From Fidelibacterota bacterium (GTDB lineage Bacteria; Fidelibacterota; UBA8477; JABMPR01), in assembly GCA_018650445.1 (NCBI GenBank), contig JABIFX010000081.1:23407-87406 (forward strand): a stretch of DNA of 64,000 bases, given 5' to 3'. The notes beneath the pieces are model-generated. The model was not told the DNA's origin and ran no database searches. It was given only the letters and a program-made list of their open reading frames with translations. Position numbers and translations under genes: made by a program. Below, one piece after another: positions 30,424-37,608 of this stretch (position 1 is its first letter; every line of letters begins with the position of its first letter).

Positions 30424-31953
30424 TCAGCGTAGATATATCATCTTAATCACTCGCGAGGAATTCCCAGATTGTATTCTTGCGAAGTAGATACCAGTGCCTA
30501 CCTGAGTACCTTCACTATCGATACCATTCCACTGGACAGTGTATCGACCAGCGGCTTTGGATTCCGAGACAAGCGTTCTGATGTGATGCCCCTGAATGTC
30601 CGTTACCATGAGCTTTACTTCAGATGCTTCAAGAGTTTCGTACTCGATAGTTGTTGTAGGATTGAAGGGGTTTGGAAAATTATTGAGCATACTGAGGGAT
30701 TCAGCCTTCACATGATCCTGTGAGATTGATGTTACATCAGAAGTATGCCAGGATGCGGTGATCGTATATTCAACCCCATTTAATACACTGAGATCCCCGA
30801 TGTAAAGCTGACTAATGCCAGTAAACTCAACCGTAGTGGCACCTTTGACACCTATAAACCATGTTCCTGGTTCAGGATCCGATATCACAAAATAGTGATC
30901 CGAACCACCTGATGTGAGTGAAGCCTCAGCAGAACCAGAAAAAGCGTAGTCATCTGGATCGGCGAAAAGATGGATGTCATACTGCTCTCCTGCTTCAAGC
31001 TCGATAGAAATACTGCCCGCTTCTTCAGGGACTTCAAAACTGTAGTGGTGGTACTGTAGATCTCCTATCCGTGTGAATTGAGGATTAGACTCTTCATATG
31101 TCTTGTCCATTACCCGCGGTTCACCATTTACTAAAGTAGCTTTAATTTCTGGAGGAGCACATCCATCGAGGGCATAGAGTAGTAGGCTTTCCATTAACAT
31201 CAATCCTTCTCCAAGAATCTCTCCCTCAGGATGTGATCCAATGGCCAACATTCTGCCCGTAGTATCATTTTCTTTGTAGGTCCAACAGCTGGGGCGCTGA
31301 TCCACAGAGGGATGCTGGGTGTAATCATAGCGAAGCAATATTTCAGTTCCTGGGGGTAATGAATTTGATTCATCAGCATAGACACCGCCCCAGTGGAAAA
31401 TATTACTGATATACATATCATCTCCAAATGTGGAGTAATTCAGTAATGCGCTGTTTGGTGAGATGAAATGACCTGTGTATACACCAGCACCAGTAATTCC
31501 TGTACCCAGCATAACACCTGGCCAGATTATTTCGCTCAATATTGCACCGGCACATGTTCCCACATATCCACTTCCTCCAGAATAGAAAGCCTGGATTCGT
31601 TCCACCCCCGCCTCACCTAGAGCATAATAATGAGGGACAGCATCGCCGCCGTTCACATAGATGGTTCTGAATCGCGGTGCTCCATCAGGGTATAATAGCC
31701 ACCCGTTACTGTCCATATCACTTCCAATAATAACGGCGTTTTGCATATTCTGTGATTCTGAAGCAAGATACTCCCAACTCAATCCAAGAGAGTCCGCGGC
31801 AGGCAAAGTAGTCCTGGAGGTTAGACCTACACCACCATCCATGAATAAATCTTTGTAATAACCCTCCGTCTGCGCTAAGCATGAAAAACACACACTTAAC
31901 AGGGTAATCAAATACGCGAGTCTATTGGATAGAGGTCCTTTTGAGGATGTCAT
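30424..31953 (-). CDS. Secreted protein with T9SS CTD (glutamine-amidotransferase-like/BPL_N-like N-terminal region, uncertain)
   Basis: Signal peptide, SGGSGYVGTCAGAIL, and C-terminus NFPNPFNPTTTIEY...MIYLR. Confidence 0.65.
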   Translation of the reverse strand: MTSSKGPLSNRLAYLITLLSVCFSCLAQTEGYYKDLFMDGGVGLTSRTTLPAADSLGLSWEYLASESQNMQNAVIIGSDMDSNGWLLYPDGAPRFRTIYVNGGDAVPHYYALGEAGVERIQAFYSGGSGYVGTCAGAILSEIIWPGVMLGTGITGAGVYTGHFISPNSALLNYSTFGDDMYISNIFHWGGVYADESNSLPPGTEILLRYDYTQHPSVDQRPSCWTYKENDTTGRMLAIGSHPEGEILGEGLMLMESLLLYALDGCAPPEIKATLVNGEPRVMDKTYEESNPQFTRIGDLQYHHYSFEVPEEAGSISIELEAGEQYDIHLFADPDDYAFSGSAEASLTSGGSDHYFVISDPEPGTWFIGVKGATTVEFTGISQLYIGDLSVLNGVEYTITASWHTSDVTSISQDHVKAESLSMLNNFPNPFNPTTTIEYETLEASEVKLMVTDIQGHHIRTLVSESKAAGRYTVQWNGIDSEGTQVGTGIYFARIQSGNSSRVIKMIYLR

Positions 31954-31987
31954 TTTCGTCTCCCAGCAATATTCATTAGTTTCAGCA

Positions 31988-33439
31988 CTATCTCAAATAG
32001 CTCATTTTTTTTGTCAGCACTTCCCGCCCGCTTTTTAGCCCGTATATATATACGCCAGAGCTGACTTTTCTACCGTTGAGATCATCACCCTCCCATCTGA
32101 ATTCATAGGTGCCAGCATGCAGCATGCCCTTAAAAAGTGTCCGAATATGTGATCCTCTCAGATCGTAGACCTCTAGTGATAAATAATTGTTTTCATTTAT
32201 CATGACCGGGATGGTTGTTGCCGGATTGAATGGGTTTGGATAATTCTGAAGCAGCTTGATGGTGGTGGGTTCGACTATATTGTGATCCAGGCTCGTAGTT
32301 GAATAATACTCAAAGCATCCCATATCGGGGGCGAAGCCGTTAAAGTCCCCTTCAGAGAGATTTACCAGCGTGTCTCCAGAAGTTGAATCTACATAAACGG
32401 CGCTCCCTGCATCAATACAAGCCGAACTTGAATCCAATTGGTAATTACTATTTACTGCATCGACAAAAAGAGGATCAGAGGACATGATTGACTCAAAGGT
32501 ATTCAATTCATTACTATCGATAAGCATTCCATCCAAACCGCCCTCGATTGTGCAGTGTGCAATCAGCAGATCACTGGCAGCCCACCCACTTGTATGGCTC
32601 GCGATCTCACTATATTGATTTCCCCAGCAAATAGAGTTGGTCATATAAAGATTGGAATGTTCAGTGATAAGTATTCCTCCACCGTCGTAATTGGTATCAG
32701 TATAGTTGGTTACGATAGTGCTGCGGTTTATGTTAAGTGTCGCATATTCATGAACCCATACTCCTCCACCTCCATATCGGCCATCATTACCATATACCAG
32801 GAGTTGATCAGCATCCAAACTTGACTGCCTCACACTTATTCCCCCTGCTATTTCAGCTGCATAATTGCTCACAATTTTTACATTCCTAAAAGTTGGATTA
32901 GAATTCATGGCGATTGAAACACCCCCACCCCAACTAGAACTGTTTCCGATAATTTCTACATTCTCCAGTAGAGGGTGTGATTCTACAGAGATTCCAATAC
33001 CACCTCCAGCGGAACCAGTTCCCGTCGCTGTATTCCCTGAGATAATTAGATTGCGCAATGTCGGAGAAGAGTATATACGGCAAATGATACCCCCACCAAA
33101 CCGTTCTACGGTTGTGTAATCCACTCCAATTCCATTTGTAATTGTAAATCCATCTAATACTGCAGCAGGAGATTCTCCATTTACAAATTGGACAACACTA
33201 CTTACCTCATTCCCATCGATTGTCGTAGAGACTGGACCATCCATAGACATAACAACGATGTTCTTTCCGTTAAAATTTAGGTTTTCTGTGTAGGTGCCAG
33301 GTAAGACCAACACGGTGTCTCCTGTGTTCACATTATCTATTCCAGCTTGAATTGTTGCATGATCCATTGGAATCAGAGTCACTGCTGCCAAGGCACAGGT
33401 ACCGATGAGCGTCATCAAAATAATTACTACGGTTCGCAT
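31988..33439 (-). CDS. Right-handed parallel beta-helix repeat protein with T9SS CTD
   Basis: Repeated GGGI/GGGV turns (FGGGIICRI, AGGGIGISV, WGGGVSIAM, GGGGVWVHE, DGGGILITE) and C-terminus NYPNPFNPATTIPV...MSYLR. Confidence 0.75.
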   Translation of the reverse strand: MRTVVIILMTLIGTCALAAVTLIPMDHATIQAGIDNVNTGDTVLVLPGTYTENLNFNGKNIVVMSMDGPVSTTIDGNEVSSVVQFVNGESPAAVLDGFTITNGIGVDYTTVERFGGGIICRIYSSPTLRNLIISGNTATGTGSAGGGIGISVESHPLLENVEIIGNSSSWGGGVSIAMNSNPTFRNVKIVSNYAAEIAGGISVRQSSLDADQLLVYGNDGRYGGGGVWVHEYATLNINRSTIVTNYTDTNYDGGGILITEHSNLYMTNSICWGNQYSEIASHTSGWAASDLLIAHCTIEGGLDGMLIDSNELNTFESIMSSDPLFVDAVNSNYQLDSSSACIDAGSAVYVDSTSGDTLVNLSEGDFNGFAPDMGCFEYYSTTSLDHNIVEPTTIKLLQNYPNPFNPATTIPVMINENNYLSLEVYDLRGSHIRTLFKGMLHAGTYEFRWEGDDLNGRKVSSGVYIYGLKSGREVLTKKMSYLR

Positions 33440-33650
33440 GATATTTCTTTCTCATTTTTGTTTATGTGACAGTTGGAATATGACTCAGAGAGAAAAAATA
33501 AGCACCTTTACAAAACCTTTACAAATGCATTTTTCAATCTTGAAATGAAAATGGAGAACTGTTTTCGTGGATAATAATTATTGAGCAAAGCATGCAGGTA
33601 TCGAAGTGCTACCATGACATAGGTTACTCATCATTCAACATGCTAAATTT

Positions 33651-33669
33651 GAAAAACCCGCTGCGGGTT
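33651..33669 (-). terminator. Small terminator-like hairpin downstream of the OMP remnant
   Basis: AACCCG-CTG-CGGGTT. On the minus strand it is followed by TTTTTC. Confidence 0.35.
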
Positions 33670-33671
33670 AG

Positions 33672-33690
33672 ATGTGACTGGAATGTGACT
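33672..33690 (+). repeat. Direct repeat ATGTGACT x2 with 11-bp period
   Basis: ATGTGACT occurs at 33672-33679 and at 33683-33690. Confidence 0.8.
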
Positions 33691-33765
33691 AAACTGAAAG
33701 AGCCCCATTTCTGAGGCTCTTTCGACTAAAGTTTGTTTCTCAAAGCATTCAATAAGCTGATTATC

Positions 33766-33909
33766 TCAATACAATCCTACTTTGACGCCTAGGTTAAAAT
33801 ACACACCACTCATATCAGAATCTGTGTACGTGTACTCAGTACCTGCACCATCGTAGTATTCACCTTGCTGAGTGAATGTTAGTTCATCAAGGCCCGTTAC
33901 TGTATCCTG
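33766..33909 (-). pseudogene. C-terminal remnant of an outer-membrane beta-barrel-like gene
   Basis: An open frame of 47 codons with no start codon: QDTVTGLDELTFTQQGEYYDGAGTEYTYTDSDMSGVYFNLGVKVGLY*. An in-frame TGA lies immediately upstream (33910-33912), inside the inverted-repeat copy. Confidence 0.4.
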
Positions 33910-33949
33910 TCAGAGCAACTCAGAACAAATAGCATGATTTTGTAAGAGA
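33901..33949 (-). repeat. Right copy of the 49-bp inverted repeat
   Basis: Its reverse complement tctcttacaaaatcatgctatttgttctgagttgctctgacaggataca pairs with 30221-30269. Confidence 0.9.
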
Positions 33950-33975
33950 TACTTTTGGCTAGTTTGAAAGCTTGA

Positions 33976-34299
33976 AAGGAAGAAGCAAGCACTGAATTCC
34001 CTTTCAACCTTAATTACCACACCACACTTAAGATTGTGAAGAAGTATTACAAGACTGCGAATATTGAGAATGCTAATATCCATACTTTACGCAGAACATT
34101 TGGATCAATAATGGTCCAACAGGGTGTTGATATTTTCACTGTGAGCAAACTACTCGGGCACAGTTCAGTTACAGTTAGCGAAAAGCATTATGCGGATCTT
34201 CTTCCGAGTAATTTAAAGGCAGGTGTTAAGGTTCTTGAGAAAGCTCTCAGGCGAAAGCCGAAGAAGAAGCCCAAGAAGCAGAAGAAAGAGTCCAGTTAA
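33976..34299 (+). pseudogene. Tyrosine recombinase (phage-integrase family), C-terminal ~105 codons only
   Basis: NIHTLRRTFGS (HxxR) and LLGHSSVTVSEKHYADL (catalytic Tyr region). The frame opens at 33976 just after a TGA and has no ATG. The N-terminal two-thirds of a normal integrase are absent. Confidence 0.8.
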
Positions 34300-34317: not shown

Positions 34318-34401
34318 CTCAAGTTTTCATACCTATCCGTTGCCTGACGATCCTCAAACGTAGTAATATGTCCAATGTTACATGAAATATATCCAGATTA
34401 A

Positions 34402-34455
34402 GTGACCATTCCGTGACCATGCTATGCTAATTAGTGGTTAATTGTGGTCAATTGG
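34402..34455 (+). repeat. Helically phased direct repeats (GTGACCAT x2, then TAATT(A)GTGGT x2 plus CAATTGG)
   Basis: GTGACCAT occurs at 34402-34409 and 34413-34420. TAATTAGTGGT, TAATTGTGGT and CAATTGG lie between 34428 and 34455, about 10-11 bp apart. Confidence 0.75.
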
Positions 34456-34483
34456 ATACATTCCTCAAAAAATGCATCCAATG

Positions 34484-34517
34484 AAAAACCCCTCGTAACT
34501 CTTTGGATTACAAGGGG
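34484..34517 (-). terminator. Rho-independent terminator closing the G+C-rich element
   Basis: On the minus strand, CCCCUUGUAA and UUACGAGGGG form a 10-bp stem with one G-U pair, followed by UUUUUC. On the plus strand the same position is a C-A mismatch, which favours minus-strand function. Confidence 0.65.
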
Positions 34518-34523
34518 TTTAAA

Positions 34524-34796
34524 TGGTGGGCCACCCCGCATTCGCTTCGCTCTGACGGGACAAGCAGGGAGTTGCCGTTCGTTTCACTCCGGCGTCCCTA
34601 CGATTCTGCTGCTAGCAGATTCTCCGTGGTGAACCCCTGTTCGGGGTGCAAGTTCAGTGGGTCCAGGTTGGAAACTGGCTTTGGGGAATGAAACACAGGG
34701 AGTTGGCTGCGAGCTTCGCTCTCGCCTCTTCTCGTCACTTGCCGCTGGCAACTGACTGCGTAGTGAACCCCTTCGGGGTGAAAGTCTGGGGTGCCC
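34524..34796 (-). ncRNA. Unassigned G+C-rich structured element (candidate ncRNA, strand tentative)
   Basis: 57-58% G+C in the two 60-nt lines I counted, against 37% for 34381-34440. The ends pair: GGGCACCCC with GGGGUG(G)CCC. The interior is a tandem duplication with a ~131-134 nt period and covarying hairpins. Terminators flank both sides, and there is no credible ORF. Confidence 0.4.
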
Positions 34797-34800
34797 ATAC

Positions 34801-34835
34801 AAAAGAAAAAGCCGCCGAATGGCGACTTTTCTTTT
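34801..34835 (-). terminator. Terminator immediately 3' of tRNA-Met
   Basis: On the minus strand, GUCGCC-AUUC-GGCGGC (one G-U pair) is followed by UUUUUCUUUU. On plus the stem has a C-A mismatch. Confidence 0.6.
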
Positions 34836-34836
34836 G

Positions 34837-34910
34837 TGGGCCCACAGGGACTTGAACCCCGAACCGACGGATTATGAGTCCGGCGCTCTAACCAATTGAG
34901 CTATGGGCCC
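34837..34910 (-). tRNA. tRNA with CAT anticodon (elongator tRNA-Met, or tRNA-Ile2 if lysidinylated); CCA not encoded
   Basis: I folded a cloverleaf by hand. Acceptor GGGCCCA/TGGGCCC, D-arm GCTCAATTGGTTAGAGC, anticodon stem CCGGA/TCCGT with loop CTCATAA, and T-arm CGGGG-TTCAAGT-CCCTG. The discriminator is A followed by CAA, not CCA. It is not initiator-like, because pair 1-72 is intact and the anticodon stem lacks three G-C pairs. Confidence 0.9.
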
Positions 34911-35035
34911 GATAGTGAATTGGGAACAGGTGATTTCATTACTCACAAAGCTCCCAAAGAGCCAATTAAAATAGTCGAGGGGTCATGCATGTGCAAAGGG
35001 ATTGTATTTCCAAACCCGAGACAAACCCCCATAAT

Positions 35036-35069: not shown

Positions 35070-35318
35070 TCTCGCTGTCATTTTTCCGATGATATTTTAG
35101 GCTAAAACCAAAAGCGTGTCAAGCTTGAGGTGAATATATTTTAAATTATTTTATACCTTGTATATACATGTATATAATGAATATAAGTCCCTATAGTGCT
35201 GTAAATATGACCAGCCATCACTAGCTAATATCCAATCAATCCAGGTTTCCTCCCATGAGGCGTGGATTAAATCACATTAATAGTGAAAATAGAGGGTGGA
35301 AGAGCCGCAATGATACGA

Positions 35319-37127
35319 CTACATCGGTGTGGGATTGGGTTTGATATCCCGTTGCTCAAGTTGAAGTTCCACTTTCCTTCGGAAATACTCAGTGGAATCA
35401 TCACCCCTGGCATCTGCATCACGCATAAGTTGTTTTAATTCATCCATTTCGCGCTGAATAGCCCACCAGCGTACCGTCTTTATACATTGATGTGCATGGC
35501 TGATACTTTCCAAGTCTGGTCGCGCCTCGTTGATCAATCGGGCAATAAATCGCCGGATCTCGGCAGATTCAATTTCATCCAACAATCTACTATGATTAAT
35601 AGGTAATTCTTTGCGCAGACGACCATGGAGCATCTGGAAGATTTCTACATAATGGAAAGCCTTGATATCATCGTCACCGATGGTGGAAGTCAACCAGTTC
35701 AGCAAACTTTCATCCTGGCTCAGATGCAACCGCAACAGTTCAAATTCTGCTTTCTCAGCACCCGATTCTGGACGGCGCAAGGTATCTGGTTTGGATTGTG
35801 TCTGTCTAACCGGAGGATCAGGGGTATACTCACTACGACGGACCCTTTTTGATTGACGTTTAAGCAATCCCATAACCGCTTCTTCAGGAACATGCATTTC
35901 ATCTGCCAATTGACCTGCCAACATGCCCCTTAGTATTTCATTCTGCATTAGAGCCAGTTCAGATACCATCCCTTCAAGGAATGCTGTCCGCTTCACAGGA
36001 GAATCCATTTGATCCTGATTGGCTCTGAGCACAAAAGTCATAAAATCCAATGCTGACCCGATGAGTTTTTGAAATTCCTTGGCGTCCTTCTCATCAAAAA
36101 AGCTATCTGGGTCTTCCCCATGGGGTATCTGGATAATGCGGACGTCAAGTCCTTTGTCCAGAAGTGTGAGTCCTGCTTTTTGAGCTGCCTTCTGACCAGC
36201 AGTATCTCCATCATAACAGACCAATACTTTATCTGCAAAACGTTTCACCAGCCCAGCCTGCTCGGAAGTAAATGCAGTACCGGTACCGGCTACAACATTT
36301 TGGAAACCTTCCTGATACAAGCGAATGAGATCCATATAACCTTCAACTAGAATGGCAGTCCGCGAGCTTCTAATCTCATCGCGACTAATATTCAAACCAA
36401 ACAGGGTGCGTCCCTTATGGTAAATGGGTGTTTCGGGACTGTTCATATATTTGGCGCCTTCAGCTTCGCCAAAAATTCTACCACCAAAAGCCTGGACTTT
36501 ACCATTGATATCCATGATGGGAAACATGATTCGGTTGCGGAAGCGATCGTAGTACCCACCCCCGTTCTTGGGCATAAGCAGACCGCTGCGCGTCAGAACA
36601 TCCTGGGATAATCCTAGCTTCATCACCTCCAGGGTCACCGTGTCCCAACTGTCTGGAGCAAAACCAACCCGGAAAGTTTTCAGGGTTTCTTCGGCAAGGC
36701 CTCGATTGAGCAAATAGTCTTTCGCAGATTTAGCACTGCTATCATTTAATTGTCGTTCAAAAACCCTGGCCGCAATTTCATGCATGTTGTAAATGGATGC
36801 CCGATCATCTTTTTTGCGGGGTTCTCCCGGATCAGTCTCAATGTGAATATTGGCTCGATCTGCCAGCAATTTTACCGATGATAAAAAATCGAGTCGTTCG
36901 TGTTCCATGATAAAGTTAATGACATTGCCACCGGCGCCACATCCGAAACAATGATAGATTTGCTTATCAGGACTGACACTGAAGGAAGGGGTCTTTTCAT
37001 TATGGAAGGGGCAGCGACCAAAAAAGTTACGACCCGAGCGTTTTAGTTGCACATAATCAGATACAACATCGACTACATCGTTGGCTTCCCTGACTTGTTC
37101 AATAATATGTTCTGCAATGAGTGCCAT
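35319..37127 (-). CDS. dnaG: DNA primase
   Basis: Zinc ribbon CPFHNEKTPSFSVSPDKQIYHCFGCGAGGN and TOPRIM region ILVEGYMDLI...VCYDGDTAGQKA. Confidence 0.95.
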   Translation of the reverse strand: MALIAEHIIEQVREANDVVDVVSDYVQLKRSGRNFFGRCPFHNEKTPSFSVSPDKQIYHCFGCGAGGNVINFIMEHERLDFLSSVKLLADRANIHIETDPGEPRKKDDRASIYNMHEIAARVFERQLNDSSAKSAKDYLLNRGLAEETLKTFRVGFAPDSWDTVTLEVMKLGLSQDVLTRSGLLMPKNGGGYYDRFRNRIMFPIMDINGKVQAFGGRIFGEAEGAKYMNSPETPIYHKGRTLFGLNISRDEIRSSRTAILVEGYMDLIRLYQEGFQNVVAGTGTAFTSEQAGLVKRFADKVLVCYDGDTAGQKAAQKAGLTLLDKGLDVRIIQIPHGEDPDSFFDEKDAKEFQKLIGSALDFMTFVLRANQDQMDSPVKRTAFLEGMVSELALMQNEILRGMLAGQLADEMHVPEEAVMGLLKRQSKRVRRSEYTPDPPVRQTQSKPDTLRRPESGAEKAEFELLRLHLSQDESLLNWLTSTIGDDDIKAFHYVEIFQMLHGRLRKELPINHSRLLDEIESAEIRRFIARLINEARPDLESISHAHQCIKTVRWWAIQREMDELKQLMRDADARGDDSTEYFRRKVELQLEQRDIKPNPTPM

Positions 37128-37236: not shown

Positions 37237-37608
37237 TCAACTGGGGTTTTCGTCTAAGGCCTGTAAAATGGTTGAAAGGACTTCTGCTTCATTTTGAAAC
37301 ACGTCGGCATTTTTGAACCGCAGGATTCGGTATCCATTGGCGATGAGAAGATCCTGTCTACGTTTATCATATTCCCTGACCTTTTGCGTGTTGTGAATGG
37401 GACCATCAAGCTCAATGATTAATTTCTCGGAAAAACAAAAGAAATCAACGATGTAATTAAGAAGAACATGCTGTCGGCGGATTTTATACCCACCTAGTTT
37501 TTTGCCCCGGAGAAGTGACCACAAACGATATTCAGCCGCAGTCTGTTTTCTACGTAAAGCTCTACTCCGTTTAACTAAGTGATCTGGAATTTTCATATTT
37601 TTTTTCAC
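37237..37608 (-). CDS. DUF559 (Vsr-like) endonuclease domain protein
   Basis: RALRRKQTAAEYRLWSLLRGKKLGGYKIRRQHVLLNYIVDFFCFSEKLIIELDGPIH...GYRILRF is the DUF559 signature. Confidence 0.85.
   Translation of the reverse strand: MKKNMKIPDHLVKRSRALRRKQTAAEYRLWSLLRGKKLGGYKIRRQHVLLNYIVDFFCFSEKLIIELDGPIHNTQKVREYDKRRQDLLIANGYRILRFKNADVFQNEAEVLSTILQALDENPS

What the first reader, a model, noticed from the sequence alone, without database searches (positions are those of the whole stretch)
34484..34836. Unassigned 273-nt G+C-rich, internally duplicated, highly structured element between a recombinase remnant and tRNA-Met
- **Composition.** The block 34524-34796 is compositionally foreign. Lines 34561-34620 and 34621-34680 count 57% and 58% G+C, against 37% for 34381-34440. 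It has no credible ORF.
- **Paired ends.** On the minus strand, 5' GGGCACCCC (34796-34788) pairs with GGGGUG(G)CCC (34537-34528). This gives 9 bp with one bulged G. ACCA follows, then a strong terminator (34484-34517).
- **Tandem duplication.** The interior repeats with a period of 131-134 nt. CAGGGAGTTG occurs at 34565 and 34696 (plus-strand reading). GTGAACCCCT(GT)TCGGGGTG(C/A)AAGT occurs at 34629 and 34763.
- **Covariation.** Between these anchors each unit carries a hairpin with the same GCT triloop but a different stem sequence. Unit 1 has TCTGCT-GCT-AGCAGA and unit 2 has GTCACTTGCC-GCT-GGCAACTGAC. This is covariation within a single sequence. Unit 2 also has a cUUCGg-type loop, CCCC-TTCG-GGG.
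- **Link to the tRNA.** The anchor CACAGGGAGTTG differs by one base from the T-arm/acceptor segment CACAGGGACTTG of the adjacent tRNA (34843-34854), and has the same orientation.
- **Strand.** Both flanking terminator stems contain a G-U pair on the minus strand that becomes a C-A mismatch on plus. This hints at minus-strand transcription, although the UUCG loop favours plus.
- **Family assignment.** I cannot match it to tmRNA, RNase P, SRP, 6S or any riboswitch I know. A tandemly repeated structured motif next to an integrase recalls integrase-associated motifs such as STAXI, but that comparison is only a hypothesis.
Basis: partly seen in the sequence, partly recalled or inferred. Interest (0 to 1): 0.78.

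Follow-up and report, generated by a model that had tools for sequence, protein, structure and literature searches.

The report
tRNA-derived hairpin repeats at island junction
The 273-base G+C-rich block is not a free-standing RNA gene but two tandem copies of a hairpin-rich repeat, built from backward and forward copies of the neighbouring tRNA's 3' end, at the junction of a decayed integrase island in a marine Marinimicrobia genome; the repeat family is undescribed, its hairpins are conserved and its function is unknown.

Summary
Window 34524-34796 is 54-60% G+C against about 37-44% around it. It is a tandem duplication, is rich in hairpins, matches no Rfam family and contains no tRNA or tmRNA.

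The interpretation needs revising. Read on the tRNA strand, each unit is an antisense copy of tRNA-Met nt 49-73, a GAA or GAACA spacer, then a sense copy of nt 49-73. G+C-rich hairpin modules interrupt the sense copy at 57/58 and, in the complete form of the unit, at 65/66. This explains the "paired ends".

The terminal GGCCCA-CCA, the terminator T2, the arm-type repeats and the integrase fragment are the left end of a decayed island. That end is 81.5% identical over 562 nt to an intact island in a relative. Several relatives have an empty site (tRNA, terminator T3, host flank), so the block is accessory.

I found nine complete units plus partial and decayed copies, in seven distinct loci. All lie at this tRNA-Met island hotspot in one Marinimicrobia clade, and all are in tRNA orientation. 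The units are mosaic and partly shared between species. Their hairpins covary strongly.

The best reading is an accreted array of tRNA-3'-end attachment-site modules. Whether the conserved hairpins act as RNA or as folded DNA is unresolved.

The parts
34837..34910 (-). tRNA-Met(CAU), intact. It is the integration target and the source of the copied sequence.
   Evidence: ARAGORN; Rfam tRNA, 70.6 bits.
34797..34836 (-). Terminator T1, a bidirectional palindrome (CAAAAGAAAAG...CTTTTTCTTTTG). With the tRNA 3' end on one side and its antisense copy on the other, it forms one long palindrome.
   Evidence: Terminator scan; inverted repeat I6. The terminator and following leader differ at only 3 positions over about 85 nt from L020 (DnaG 74% identical).
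34775..34796 (-). Unit A leader: antisense copy of tRNA nt about 49-72 (GGGCACCCCAGACTTTCACCCC).
   Evidence: Its reverse complement, GGGGTGAAAGTCTGGGGTGCCC, compares with tRNA GGGGTTCAAGTCCCTGTGGGCCC.
34764..34771 (-). Unit A: sense copy of tRNA nt 50-57 (GGGGTTCA), preceded by the GAA spacer at 34772-34774.
   Evidence: Invariant in all 9 units.
34705..34763 (-). Unit A insert 1 at tRNA position 57/58. Hairpin 1 is GUCAGUUGCC-AGC-GGCAAGUGAC. Hairpin 2 is GGC-GA-GAGC-GAA-GCUC-GCA-GCC.
   Evidence: Fold; covariation counts. Hairpin 2 is shared with L100 unit 2, but hairpin 1 is not.
34696..34704 (-). Unit A: sense copy of tRNA nt 58-65 (AACTCCCTG; the tRNA has AGTCCCTG).
34666..34695 (-). Spacer between the units (TGTTTCATTCCCCAAAGCCAGTTTCCAACC). 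It occupies the slot that holds insert 2, the acceptor copy and a terminator in other arrays.
   Evidence: comparison with L020, L100 and L156.
34643..34665 (-). Unit B leader: antisense copy of tRNA nt 49-73 (TGGACCCACTGAACTTGCACCCC). With the first bases of the GAACA spacer (34638-34642) it matches the reverse complement of the tRNA 3' end.
   Evidence: Local alignment: 22 of 26 positions match, with 3 mismatches and one gap. The score is 15, against a maximum of 13 in 500 shuffles.
34630..34637 (-). Unit B: sense copy of tRNA nt 50-57 (GGGGTTCA).
34574..34629 (-). Unit B insert 1. Hairpin 1 is GAAUCUGCU-AGC-AGCAGAAUC. Hairpin 2 is GCCG-GAGUGAAACGAA-CGGC.
   Evidence: Apart from one base in hairpin 1, the sequence is identical to the L156 unit from GGGGTTCA up to hairpin 2 and then diverges.
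34565..34573 (-). Unit B: sense copy of tRNA nt 58-65 (AACTCCCTG).
34534..34564 (-). Unit B insert 2 at tRNA position 65/66 (CTTGTCCCGTCAGAGCGAAGCGAATGCGGGG). This hairpin belongs to the insert-2 family, whose core resembles a D-arm with a shortened loop.
   Evidence: Homologous inserts occur in L015, L020, L021, L094, L124 and L156.
34524..34533 (-). Sense copy of tRNA nt 66-73 plus CCA (TGGCCCACCA). This is the junction where homology to the left end of the L118-type island begins.
   Evidence: BLASTN: 81.5% identity over 562 nt starting at window 34532. Intact islands read GGGCCCA-CCA-T2.
34480..34520 (-). Terminator T2. It is island-borne and follows the restored tRNA 3' end in intact islands.
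   Evidence: Inverted repeat I3. The same hairpin directly follows the tRNA in L015, L024, L108, L118, L120, L163, L165 and L177.
34402..34418 (-). Arm-type direct repeats GGTCAC-N5-GGTCAC, presumed integrase-binding sites of the island.
   Evidence: The identical motif sits at the same position in L118, L163 and L177, next to a full-length integrase. It is the only such match in the window.
33964..34299 (+). Tyrosine-recombinase remnant, matching residues about 246-337 of a 355-aa integrase. The ORF runs 34036-34299.
   Evidence: Pfam PF00589; 90% identity to the L118 integrase; tblastn 88%.
30427..33963 (-). Remainder of the decayed island: two cargo proteins with type IX secretion (T9SS) sorting tails. 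The host flank resumes at about 30426, and no attR or T3 is left.
   Evidence: Pfam. The flank downstream of T3 in L122 and L015 aligns to window 30426-30268.

Best explanation
The block is a tRNA-proximal array of two "attachment-site modules" left by recombination at a genomic-island hotspot. It is not a housekeeping or free-standing RNA gene.

**Shown**
- Each module is an antisense copy of tRNA-Met nt 49-73, a 3-5-nt spacer, and a sense copy of the same tRNA segment.
- G+C-rich hairpin modules split the sense copy at 57/58 (insert 1) and, in unit B, at 65/66 (insert 2). In unit A a 30-nt spacer replaces insert 2 and nt 66-73.
- The array is bounded on one side by the intact tRNA plus a bidirectional terminator.
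- On the other side it meets the left end (CCA, T2, arm sites, integrase) of a decayed integrase island.

**Inferred**
- Islands specific for this tRNA bring a fresh tRNA 3' part and a terminator each time they integrate. Each integration pushes earlier junctions inward.
- Recombination between the repeated tRNA-end sites leaves short blocks, each starting with a terminator and ending in a TGGGCCCA-like copy. The core TGGGCCCA is itself a palindrome.
- The blocks are shuffled between strains and species by the islands.
- In cis they act as spare or pseudo attachment sites plus transcriptional insulators.
- The conserved hairpins show that the module is copied and maintained as a unit, and it probably folds as a single strand on the tRNA-sense strand. 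What the fold does is not known.
For: **Derivation from the tRNA**
- Sense blocks GGGGTTCA and AACTCCCTG are invariant or nearly so in all 9 units.
- The antisense leader matches the reverse complement of the tRNA 3' end at 22 of 26 positions.
- In L015 a displaced tRNA 3' half carries both inserts: about 21 nt match the tRNA, then insert 1, then ACTCCCTG, then insert 2, then GTGGGCCCA and the ancestral terminator T3.

**Island junction**
- Window 34532-33974 is 81.5% identical to the attL-to-integrase segment of L118.
- The integrase remnant is 90% identical to the L118 integrase.
- Intact islands read tRNA-CCA-T2-arm sites-integrase-Xis with no units.

**Accessory status**
- Empty sites (tRNA, T3, flank) occur in L122, L175 and L187.
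- Strains carrying the same DnaG protein have at least 6 different sequences after the tRNA.
- Relatives whose DnaG is 93-97% identical lack the block.

**Block boundaries at the tRNA end**
- L020 has two successive blocks, the first ending in a perfect GTGGGCCCA copy and followed by T1, which opens the second.
- The same terminator-first, tRNA-end-last layout is seen in L100, L155 and L156.

**Horizontal shuffling and mosaicism**
- T1 plus leader differ at only 3 positions over about 85 nt between the window and L020, although DnaG is only 74% identical.
- The window's unit B and the L156 unit are identical, apart from one base in hairpin 1, up to hairpin 2. The window's unit A and L100 unit 2 share hairpin 2 but not hairpin 1.

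**Restriction to the hotspot**
- The covariance model finds units only there, in about 500 kb of sequence.
- The metagenome scan gave 4 distinct true loci, all of this kind.
- The viral scan found none.

**General phenomenon already described**
- Partial tRNAs, fragmented integrases and tandem integration next to an island tRNA are described for tycheposons (bioRxiv 10.1101/2020.12.28.424599).
- Tandem accretion with cis-mobilizable elements (CIMEs) is reviewed in PMC5704250.
Against: - Simple decay of att repeats does not predict G+C-rich hairpins that covary.
- It also does not predict the strong strand asymmetry of those hairpins. On the tRNA-sense strand there are 22 purine-purine mismatches against 2 pyrimidine-pyrimidine, and the loops are almost all purine. 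Both features suggest selection on a folded single strand, possibly an RNA.
- Two lines suggest the island integrases cross over near the anticodon loop. Homology of attR to the tRNA begins there in L100 and L021. An island-linked change at about nt 43-45 is seen within one species. The units lack that region, so they may not be substrates for these integrases.
- No excision product, circular form or second genomic location of a block was observed.
- The origin of the antisense copies and of the inserts is not explained mechanistically.
Confidence: 0.5

Rival explanations
1. The block is a functional structured RNA on the tRNA strand. It would be made by read-through from the tRNA-Met promoter, or as an island transcript, and would end at T2. 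It would be a mimic built from tRNA 3'-half parts: an acceptor-like closing stem with ACCA, a T-arm carrying an inserted two-hairpin domain, and a D-arm-like hairpin. Such an RNA could be cut or bound by tRNA enzymes such as RNase P, RNase Z or the CCA-adding enzyme, or could pair with tRNA-Met through its antisense segments.
For: - Covariation is strong: 79.6% of cells paired against 58% in shuffles, 16 of 18 pairs changed on both sides, and slid controls at 26-48%.
- The hairpins show strand asymmetry typical of RNA motifs: GAA, GAGA and AGC loops, G-A mismatches, and a conserved GA/GAA internal loop in hairpin 2.
- Units always lie on the tRNA strand, and several arrays are followed by a same-strand terminator: T2 in the window, T3 in L015 and L100.
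- The closing stem covaries between the window (GGGCACC / GGUGGCCC) and L020 (GGGUGCC / GGCACCC).
- A near-consensus promoter lies upstream of the tRNA.
Against: - A strong terminator (11-bp stem followed by a U-run) separates the tRNA from the block, and no promoter-like site lies in between.
- The block is accessory and absent from close relatives.
- Hairpins are swapped as modules between near-identical flanks, which points to recombination rather than gradual RNA evolution.
- There are almost no G-U pairs: 4 G-U against 121 Watson-Crick pairs, and 8 A-C.
- The closing stem is not conserved in L100.
- The fold z-score is only -2.7.
- The ACCA comes from the island's tRNA end.
Confidence: 0.27
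2. The block is an inert recombination scar. The hairpins would be born as palindromes and kept symmetric by template switching (quasi-palindrome correction) in a region full of inverted tRNA copies, with no selection and no function.
For: - The architecture is a series of palindromes: tRNA end, T1, antisense copy, GAA, sense copy.
- Pairing is almost purely Watson-Crick, without wobble.
- In several relatives an A+T-rich palindromic "module X" fills the same slot. It looks like a decayed version.
- L155 carries a visibly decayed unit.
Against: - Homologous stem positions show repeated compensatory changes across units from different species.
- The consistent bias towards purine loops and purine-purine mismatches on one strand is not expected from a strand-symmetric mutational process.
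- The block stays at 54-60% G+C within roughly 40% G+C surroundings.
Confidence: 0.15
3. The unit is a folded single-stranded DNA recombination site, analogous to integron attC or to the CTX-phage attP hairpin. In a single strand, the antisense and sense copies would anneal to rebuild a duplex that looks like the tRNA T-arm and acceptor target. The two hairpin inserts would protrude 8 nt apart, at 57/58 and 65/66, where a tyrosine recombinase would cleave on either side of an 8-bp overlap. The modules would then be small non-autonomous cassettes inserted at the tRNA 3' end.
For: - Antisense and sense target copies lie next to each other.
- Structure is conserved but stem sequence is not.
- Blocks are tandem and each ends in the palindromic TGGGCCCA.
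- The units lie next to tyrosine recombinases.
- C-GAA-G loops, which are very stable as DNA mini-hairpins (from my own knowledge), recur on one strand.
- The inserts sit exactly 8 nt apart.
Against: - The attC consensus sequences R'' (RYYYAAC) and R' (GTTRRRY) are absent on both strands.
- The integrases fall far below the IntI and Xer cut-offs, and they have arm-type sites and an excisionase, as classical double-strand integrases do.
- Leader-to-sense pairing is short, at 5-8 bp.
- The inferred crossover of the island integrases is near the anticodon loop.
- No free cassette or alternative insertion site was seen.
Confidence: 0.07
4. The block is a divergent member of a known RNA or repeat class: tmRNA, RNase P RNA, SRP RNA, 6S RNA, a riboswitch, STAXI, or a MITE or REP element.
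For: - The 3' end reads ACCA, the ends pair, and a terminator follows, which is superficially like tmRNA.
- It is a tandem structured motif beside an integrase, which is superficially like STAXI.
Against: - No Rfam hit, even at E<=10, in the window or in five other unit-bearing loci.
- ARAGORN finds no tmRNA, and the acceptor lacks G3:U70.
- No copies lie away from the tRNA-Met hotspot.
Confidence: 0.01

Closest known systems
Partial-tRNA attachment-site repeats and degenerate elements at tRNA-proximal island edges (for example tycheposon islands of Prochlorococcus, P4-like islands, ICEs and IMEs)
   Same: - An intact tRNA lies at the proximal edge of a strain-variable island.
- Partial tRNA copies, a fragmented tyrosine integrase and an excisionase in intact copies are present.
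- Empty sites exist in relatives.
- Successive integrations push older junctions inward (preprint read).
   Different: - Here the partial tRNA copies come as antisense plus sense pairs.
- The sense copies are split at two fixed positions by conserved, covarying G+C-rich hairpin modules.
- The blocks are only about 95-310 bp long and lack genes.
- None of this is part of the described att-repeat picture.
CIMEs (cis-mobilizable elements) and tandem accretion (ICESt1/ICESt3 family; review PMC5704250)
   Same: - The blocks are gene-less remnants bounded by att-like repeats.
- They sit in tandem with other, decayed integrative elements at the 3' end of a target gene.
   Different: - CIMEs are kilobase-scale remnants with recognisable attL and attR.
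- The blocks here are miniature, palindromic and built almost entirely of target-site copies and hairpins.
- Mobilisation is untested.
Integron attC sites; the folded attP of CTX phage
   Same: - They are recombinase-associated.
- Structure is conserved rather than stem sequence.
- They form tandem arrays.
- Inverted copies could rebuild a duplex site in a single strand.
   Different: - The R'/R'' consensus is absent.
- The integrases are not IntI or Xer by NCBIfam cut-offs.
- There are no cassettes with ORFs and no dif-like site.
- Single-strand recombination is unproven.
STAXI RNA and other integrase-associated structured RNA motifs
   Same: A tandemly repeated structured motif lies next to a tyrosine recombinase gene.
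   Different: - No covariance-model match at any threshold tried.
- The units are derived from the adjacent tRNA.
tRNA-like RNAs (the tmRNA tRNA-like domain, the RNase P-processed P4 CI RNA, tRNA 3' external transcribed spacer RNAs)
   Same: - An acceptor-like closing stem with ACCA and T-arm sequences.
- A position immediately downstream of a tRNA.
   Different: - No cloverleaf, no tmRNA tag and no G3:U70.
- The T-loop is interrupted by a domain of about 56-58 nt.
- The CCA is inherited from the island's tRNA end.
- Expression is unknown.

Membership tests
Partial-tRNA att repeats of a tRNA-integrating island | An intact target tRNA gene at the island edge | tested here: met
   tRNA-Met(CAU) at 34837-34910.
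Partial-tRNA att repeats of a tRNA-integrating island | Direct partial copies of the tRNA 3' part downstream of the gene | tested here: met
   GGGGTTCA, AACTCCCTG and TGGCCCA occur in tRNA order, twice. In L015 about 21 nt match the tRNA contiguously.
Partial-tRNA att repeats of a tRNA-integrating island | An adjacent tyrosine integrase (or its remnant) with island-type flank | tested here: met
   PF00589 fragment; 90% identity to a full-length 355-aa integrase; 81.5% DNA identity over 562 nt to an intact attL.
Partial-tRNA att repeats of a tRNA-integrating island | Presence/absence polymorphism, with empty sites in relatives | tested here: met
   L122, L175 and L187 read tRNA-T3-flank. At least 6 alternative sequences follow the tRNA within one DnaG-identical species.
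CIME / miniature integrative module | Bounded by attL- and attR-like repeats and lacking integration genes | tested here: inconclusive
   The block is flanked by GTGGGCCCA (the tRNA end) and GTGGCCCA (34527-34534). L020 has two successive blocks. Whether these repeats are functional att sites is unknown.
CIME / miniature integrative module | Excision or mobilisation in cis by a resident integrase | not testable with these tools
   This needs PCR for circles and empty junctions, or long-read population data.
Integron attC | R'' (RYYYAAC) and R' (GTTRRRY) core sites flanking an imperfect palindrome | tested here: not met
   Neither motif occurs in 34480-34840 on either strand.
Integron attC | An associated IntI-type integrase | tested here: not met
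   TIGR02249 scores 58 bits against a cut-off of 265; PRK15417 scores 29.5 against 435.
STAXI or any other Rfam family | A covariance-model match at or near the gathering score | tested here: not met
   No hit in the block at gathering score or at E<=10. No hit on units in five other loci at E<=1.
tmRNA | A tRNA-like domain with G3:U70, a tag reading frame and detection by ARAGORN | tested here: not met
   ARAGORN reports no tmRNA. The acceptor pair 3:70 is G-C, as read.
MITE / REP-type dispersed repeat | Many dispersed copies at unrelated loci | tested here: not met
   There are 2 copies in the 64-kb window, both in the block. In about 500 kb of related loci the model finds no unit outside the tRNA-Met hotspot. 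The complete genome was not available.
Structured non-coding RNA (generic) | Base pairs supported by compensatory changes | tested here: met
   16 of 18 pairs have changes on both sides. The covariation score is 0.54 against 0.21 in shuffles, reached by 0 of 500 shuffles. With only 9 related sequences, this applies equally to folded DNA.
Structured non-coding RNA (generic) | Transcription with defined ends | not testable with these tools
   There is no promoter-like site between T1 and the block. No expression data were available.

The most novel reading that the evidence does not exclude
The units are a previously undescribed class of element derived from the tRNA "top half", and they are functional as a folded single strand.

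- **As RNA:** an island-borne mimic with an acceptor/T-arm-like core, an ACCA end and segments antisense to tRNA-Met. It would be processed by tRNA enzymes, or would pair with the tRNA or its gene.
- **As DNA:** an attC-like folded recombination site that lets tiny gene-less cassettes insert at the tRNA 3' end.

The hairpin inserts at T-loop position 57/58 and at 65/66 would be the functional, selected parts.
Probability: 0.2. Interest if true: 0.75.

Novelty: new variant of a known kind. Interest (0 to 1): 0.42.

Why it matters
- **Islands at tRNA genes.** They are a main route of gene gain in streamlined marine bacteria. This locus shows a version in which the tRNA-proximal edge is not just decaying att repeats. 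It is an ordered, horizontally shuffled family of antisense/sense tRNA-end modules with conserved hairpins.
- **If the hairpins act in DNA.** They would point to a new way of building or protecting attachment sites, or of moving miniature cassettes.
- **If the hairpins act in RNA.** They would be a new tRNA-derived RNA carried by mobile elements of an uncultured phylum.
- **For genome scanning.** A G+C-rich, highly "structured", covarying block next to a tRNA and an integrase can be assembled from copies of the tRNA itself. Such blocks should be compared with the adjacent tRNA on both strands before being called a new RNA gene.

Tried and rejected
- **Known RNA families.** cmscan of the whole window at gathering score, of 34350-34950 at E<=10, and of five other unit-bearing loci at E<=1 gave only the tRNA and chance hits. 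The block is therefore not tmRNA, RNase P RNA, SRP RNA, 6S RNA, a riboswitch or STAXI. ARAGORN found no tmRNA.
- **Housekeeping RNA conserved by synteny.** Rejected. Relatives whose DnaG is 93-97% identical have the tRNA but not the block, and empty sites exist.
- **MITE or REP-like dispersed hairpins.** Motif counts, nhmmer and a covariance model find nothing away from the tRNA-Met hotspot in the window or in about 500 kb of relatives.
- **Phage or provirus origin.** A scan of IMG/VR with GGGGTTCA-N40-70-CAACTCCCTG returned 28 stretches. None is a unit.
- **Integron attC.** The consensus is absent and the integrases are not IntI.
- **T-loop as the integrase overlap region.** I considered that the two insert positions, 8 nt apart, mark integrase cleavage sites. 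Two observations argue against this for the island integrases: attR homology begins at the anticodon loop, and an island-linked change occurs at about nt 43-45. I kept the idea only inside the minor folded-DNA rival.
- **More L124-type contigs.** I looked for further copies of the variant in which the tRNA is interrupted by insert 2. The contigs for P0048 and P0049 end before the tRNA.
- **More units through DnaG homologues.** Ten further look-ups for nine homologues (P0004, P0027, P0046, P0014, P0057, P0050, P0006, P0062, P0049, P0048) added only L155 and L156.
- **Wobble asymmetry to assign the strand.** Uninformative: 4 G-U against 8 A-C.
Full report
**1. The observation**

The block is as described.
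- In 100-nt windows, G+C is 0.54-0.60 from 34500 to 34800 and 0.36-0.44 on both sides.
CACAGGGAGTTG / AGCAGGGAGTTG lie 131 nt apart, with the tRNA copy CACAGGGACTTG a further 149 nt on. The two halves of the GTGAACCCCT...TTCGGGGTG motif recur 134 and 132 nt apart.
- The GCT-loop hairpins and the end pairing are in the sequence and in the predicted fold.
- The fold is only moderately better than shuffles: z = -2.7 on the minus strand and -1.8 on the plus strand.
- Only short ORFs overlapping on both strands cross the block.
- ARAGORN finds a single gene in the window, tRNA-Met(CAU) at 34836-34910, and no tmRNA.
- Rfam has no match to the block at gathering scores or at E<=10.

**2. Organism and setting**

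The window belongs to a Candidatus Neomarinimicrobiota (Marinimicrobia / SAR406) population. The same locus occurs in at least seven public contigs, including two NCBI MAGs. The block is 100% identical in all of them; the only two differences seen, in one contig, fall in the tRNA.

On the minus strand the order is:
- mutS2, a DUF559 gene and dnaG (35319-37127);
- tRNA-Met;
- a bidirectional terminator, T1;
- the block;
- a second terminator, T2;
- GGTCAC-N5-GGTCAC repeats;
- the C-terminal fragment of a tyrosine recombinase on the opposite strand;
- two genes for proteins with type IX secretion (T9SS) sorting tails.

A near-consensus promoter (TTGACA-17-TAAAAT) lies upstream of the tRNA. There is no promoter-like site between T1 and the block.

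**3. What the block is made of**

Related sequences made the architecture clear. Read on the tRNA strand, each unit has three parts.
- *An antisense copy of the tRNA's T-arm and acceptor 3' strand.* For unit B, TGGACCCACTGAACTTGCACCCCGA matches the reverse complement of tRNA nt 48-73 at 22 of 26 positions, with 3 mismatches and one gap. The score is 15, against a maximum of 13 in 500 shuffles.
- *A spacer*, GAA or GAACA.
- *A sense copy of the same tRNA segment, in tRNA order but interrupted.* The full form is GGGGTTCA (nt 50-57), insert 1, AACTCCCTG (58-65), insert 2, then a TGGGCCCA-like copy (66-73).

Insert 1 is two hairpins. Insert 2 is one hairpin whose core (GUAGCUC-GAA-GAGCG in L015) matches the tRNA D-arm with its loop cut down. 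Unit B (34524-34665) has this full form. In unit A (34696-34796) the sense copy stops after AACTCCCTG, and a 30-nt spacer (34666-34695) follows instead.

They cover the whole block: 34775-34796, 34764-34771, 34705-34763, 34696-34704, 34666-34695, 34643-34665, 34630-34637, 34574-34629, 34565-34573, 34534-34564 and 34524-34533.

The "paired ends" are therefore the antisense tRNA-end copy of unit A pairing with the sense tRNA-end copy of unit B. T1 lies between the real tRNA 3' end and its antisense copy, so the whole stretch is one long palindrome.

The clearest proof of the tRNA derivation is in L015. There a displaced tRNA 3' half matches the tRNA over about 21 nt from the anticodon loop to the T-loop. 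It then carries insert 1, ACTCCCTG, insert 2 and GTGGGCCCA, and runs into the ancestral terminator T3 and the host flank.

**4. The 3' boundary is an island junction**

In relatives with intact islands the sequence reads as follows:
- tRNA-Met, then CCA, then T2;
- arm-type repeats;
- a full-length integrase of 340-355 aa on the opposite strand;
- an HTH_17 excisionase.

From the copy of the tRNA end, window 34532-33974 is 81.5% identical over 562 nt to this segment of L118. The integrase fragment corresponds to residues about 246-337 of the 355-aa protein (88-90% identity). So the ACCA and the "strong terminator" after the block are the island's restored tRNA end and its terminator. They are not the 3' end of an RNA gene.

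The host flank that follows T3 in empty sites resumes in the window at about 30426, directly after the second T9SS gene, with no attR left. The decayed island thus spans about 34836 to 30427.

**5. The block is accessory**

- Three species show the empty site: tRNA, T3, then flank (L122, L175, L187).
- Among strains carrying the same DnaG protein (P0046), the sequence after the tRNA has at least six forms: the empty site, several different islands, and one in which the tRNA is followed by insert 2.
- Relatives whose DnaG is 93-97% identical to the window's lack the block.
- Many contigs end at the tRNA, as expected at a strain-variable site.

This is the pattern described for tRNA-proximal island growth, with partial tRNAs, fragmented integrases and successive integrations (tycheposon preprint). 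It also fits tandem accretion of decayed elements (review PMC5704250).

**6. The unit is a family**

A degenerate pattern taken from the two units found 20 stretches in the metagenome collection. Four distinct loci are true homologues and the rest are chance or coding matches.

With the loci fetched through DnaG homologues, I have nine complete units plus partial and decayed copies, in seven distinct loci: the window, L015, L020, L094/L097, L098, L100/L105 and L156. L155 adds a decayed unit. L020a, L021 and L124 are tRNA halves that carry only insert 2.

- All units lie at this tRNA-Met hotspot or at its displaced 3' half, and all are in tRNA orientation.
- All units that carry insert 1 share AACU where the tRNA has AAGU, so they descend from one ancestral unit.
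- Blocks typically begin with a palindromic terminator directly after a tRNA end and finish with a tRNA-end-like copy, which is perfect (TGGGCCCA) in L015, L020a and L156 and degraded in the window and L100. L020 has two such blocks in series. TGGGCCCA is itself a palindrome.
- The units are mosaic. The window's unit B and the L156 unit are identical, apart from one base in hairpin 1, up to hairpin 2 and then differ. The window's unit A and L100 unit 2 share hairpin 2 but not hairpin 1.
- T1 plus leader differ at only 3 positions over about 85 nt between the window and L020, although their DnaG proteins are only 74% identical. This indicates horizontal exchange.
- A covariance model of insert 1 finds only these units, and the decayed L155 copy, in 500 kb. 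It finds two copies in the 64-kb window.
- A scan of viral contigs found no unit.

**7. Conserved structure**

I tested three helices on the nine-unit alignment.
- 79.6% of cells form standard pairs, against 58.2% in shuffles (0 of 500 shuffles reach the observed value).
- 16 of 18 pairs show changes on both sides.
- With partners slid by 1-3 columns, pairing falls to 26-48%.
- Insert 2 shows the same behaviour by inspection. The outer stems are CCAG/CUGG, CCUG/CAGG, CUCC/GGAG and CCCG/CGGG. The inner stems are GCUC/GAGC, GUCC/GGAC and GCCC/GGGC.

Pairing is almost purely Watson-Crick: 121 Watson-Crick pairs, 4 G-U and 8 A-C. Wobble pairs therefore do not assign a strand. There is, however, a strong strand asymmetry of another kind. 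On the tRNA-sense strand there are 22 purine-purine mismatches against 2 pyrimidine-pyrimidine, and the loops are nearly all purine (GAA, GAGA, AAA, AGA, AGC, AGU). The hairpins are thus constrained, and the constraint appears to act on the tRNA-sense strand as a single strand. These data cannot separate RNA from DNA. With nine related sequences the statistics are indicative, not conclusive.

**8. Explanation**

The origin is well supported. The block is an array of tRNA-3'-end modules at the tRNA-proximal edge of an island hotspot. It is joined on its distal side to the attL of a decayed island, and it is exchanged and rearranged by recombination.

How it acts is inferred. I favour a DNA-level role or none (confidence 0.5). 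On that reading the blocks are left behind and accreted by recombination between repeated tRNA-end sites. They provide terminators and pseudo attachment sites. The hairpins are maintained because the module propagates as a unit.

Three things count against this reading:
- the covariation and the strand asymmetry;
- the indication that the island integrases cross over near the anticodon loop, a region the units lack;
- the absence of any observed excision product.

The main rival (0.27) is a structured RNA on the tRNA strand. The covariation, the loop and mismatch types and the same-strand terminators support it. The strong intervening terminator, the lack of a promoter, the accessory distribution and the modular swapping of hairpins weaken it.

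An inert scar kept palindromic by template switching (0.15) fits the palindromic architecture and the A+T-rich "module X" in the same slot in other strains. It does not fit the strand bias.

A folded single-strand recombination site of the attC or CTX-phage kind (0.07) is attractive, because antisense and sense target copies lie side by side and the inserts are exactly 8 nt apart. It fails the attC consensus and integrase tests.

Known RNA families and dispersed repeats are excluded.

**9. Novelty and score**

The general phenomenon is known: partial tRNA repeats and integrase fragments at an island tRNA. The particular unit did not match any family I could search, and nothing like it turned up in the papers read. 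Its distinguishing features are the antisense/sense tRNA-end pair, the covarying hairpin modules at T-loop position 57/58 and at 65/66, and the gene-less blocks that start with a terminator.

I rate it a new variant of a known kind, with interest 0.42. It is moderately surprising to a specialist in mobile elements or RNA. It would become clearly interesting if the hairpins prove functional; I give that reading a probability of about 0.2 and would score it 0.75 if true.

Noticed in passing
L124:4099-4229 (a strain of the species whose DnaG is 79% identical): The dnaG-proximal tRNA-Met runs intact through the T-stem (…GTCCCTG). One insert-2 hairpin and the start of a second then interrupt it before the contig ends. 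This may be a disrupted tRNA allele, or a tRNA that carries an intervening hairpin at 65/66.
   Followed up: partly
L010, L013, L018, L114-116 and L184 (directly after the tRNA terminator); L094:7400-7480: An A+T-rich palindromic "module X" (…GAATATCCAATGTCGAAG…TTCGATATTCAAAG) fills the same slot between the tRNA terminator and T3, and it precedes the unit in L094. Its ends look like A+T-rich versions of TTCGGGGTTCAAG in both orientations. It may be an old, decayed relative of the units.
   Followed up: partly
window 34837-34910: The CAU-anticodon tRNA has G1-C72, so it is not an initiator. It also has C4:G69 and C5:G68. From my own knowledge, that pattern is typical of tRNA-Ile2 substrates of lysidine synthetase. 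It may therefore be tRNA-Ile2 rather than elongator tRNA-Met.
   Followed up: no
window 35094-35122 (minus strand): A near-consensus sigma-70-type promoter (TTGACA-17-TAAAAT, 11 of 12 matches) lies about 185 nt upstream of the tRNA. A hairpin-rich leader lies between dnaG and the tRNA.
   Followed up: no
window 30424-33439; L015:6773-14092: The island cargo differs by strain. The window carries two proteins with T9SS sorting tails (one also with a PPC domain). L015 carries a single 2439-aa ORF. L004 has unrelated genes downstream of the same block.
   Followed up: partly
window 34451-34482 and 34402-34418: Between T2 and the integrase fragment lie a 12-nt inverted repeat (ATTGGATACATT / AATGCATCCAAT) and GGTCAC-N5-GGTCAC direct repeats. 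Both are conserved in L118-type islands. A second island type has GGGACA / GGGCACA repeats at the same place. These are presumably accessory-protein and arm-type integrase sites.
   Followed up: partly
L094:7000-7350: The 3' end of a transposase-like ORF (not tested against Pfam) lies immediately upstream of module X and the unit. In this contig the unit is not next to a tRNA.
   Followed up: no
window 37237-37608: A DUF559 / Vsr-like endonuclease gene lies between mutS2 (with a Smr domain) and dnaG. It is conserved at that position across most of the clade.
   Followed up: no
L156:1499-1550; L015:2988-3031: Sub-threshold Rfam hits to whalefall-1 RNA (20.7-22.8 bits against a gathering score of 37) occur in the region upstream of dnaG in two relatives, on opposite strands. 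They are probably chance.
   Followed up: no
window 34859 and 34862 compared with L005: The only two differences between the window and the MAG GCA_018653465.1, across the roughly 2.4 kb compared, fall in the T-arm region of the tRNA. The block itself is identical.
   Followed up: no
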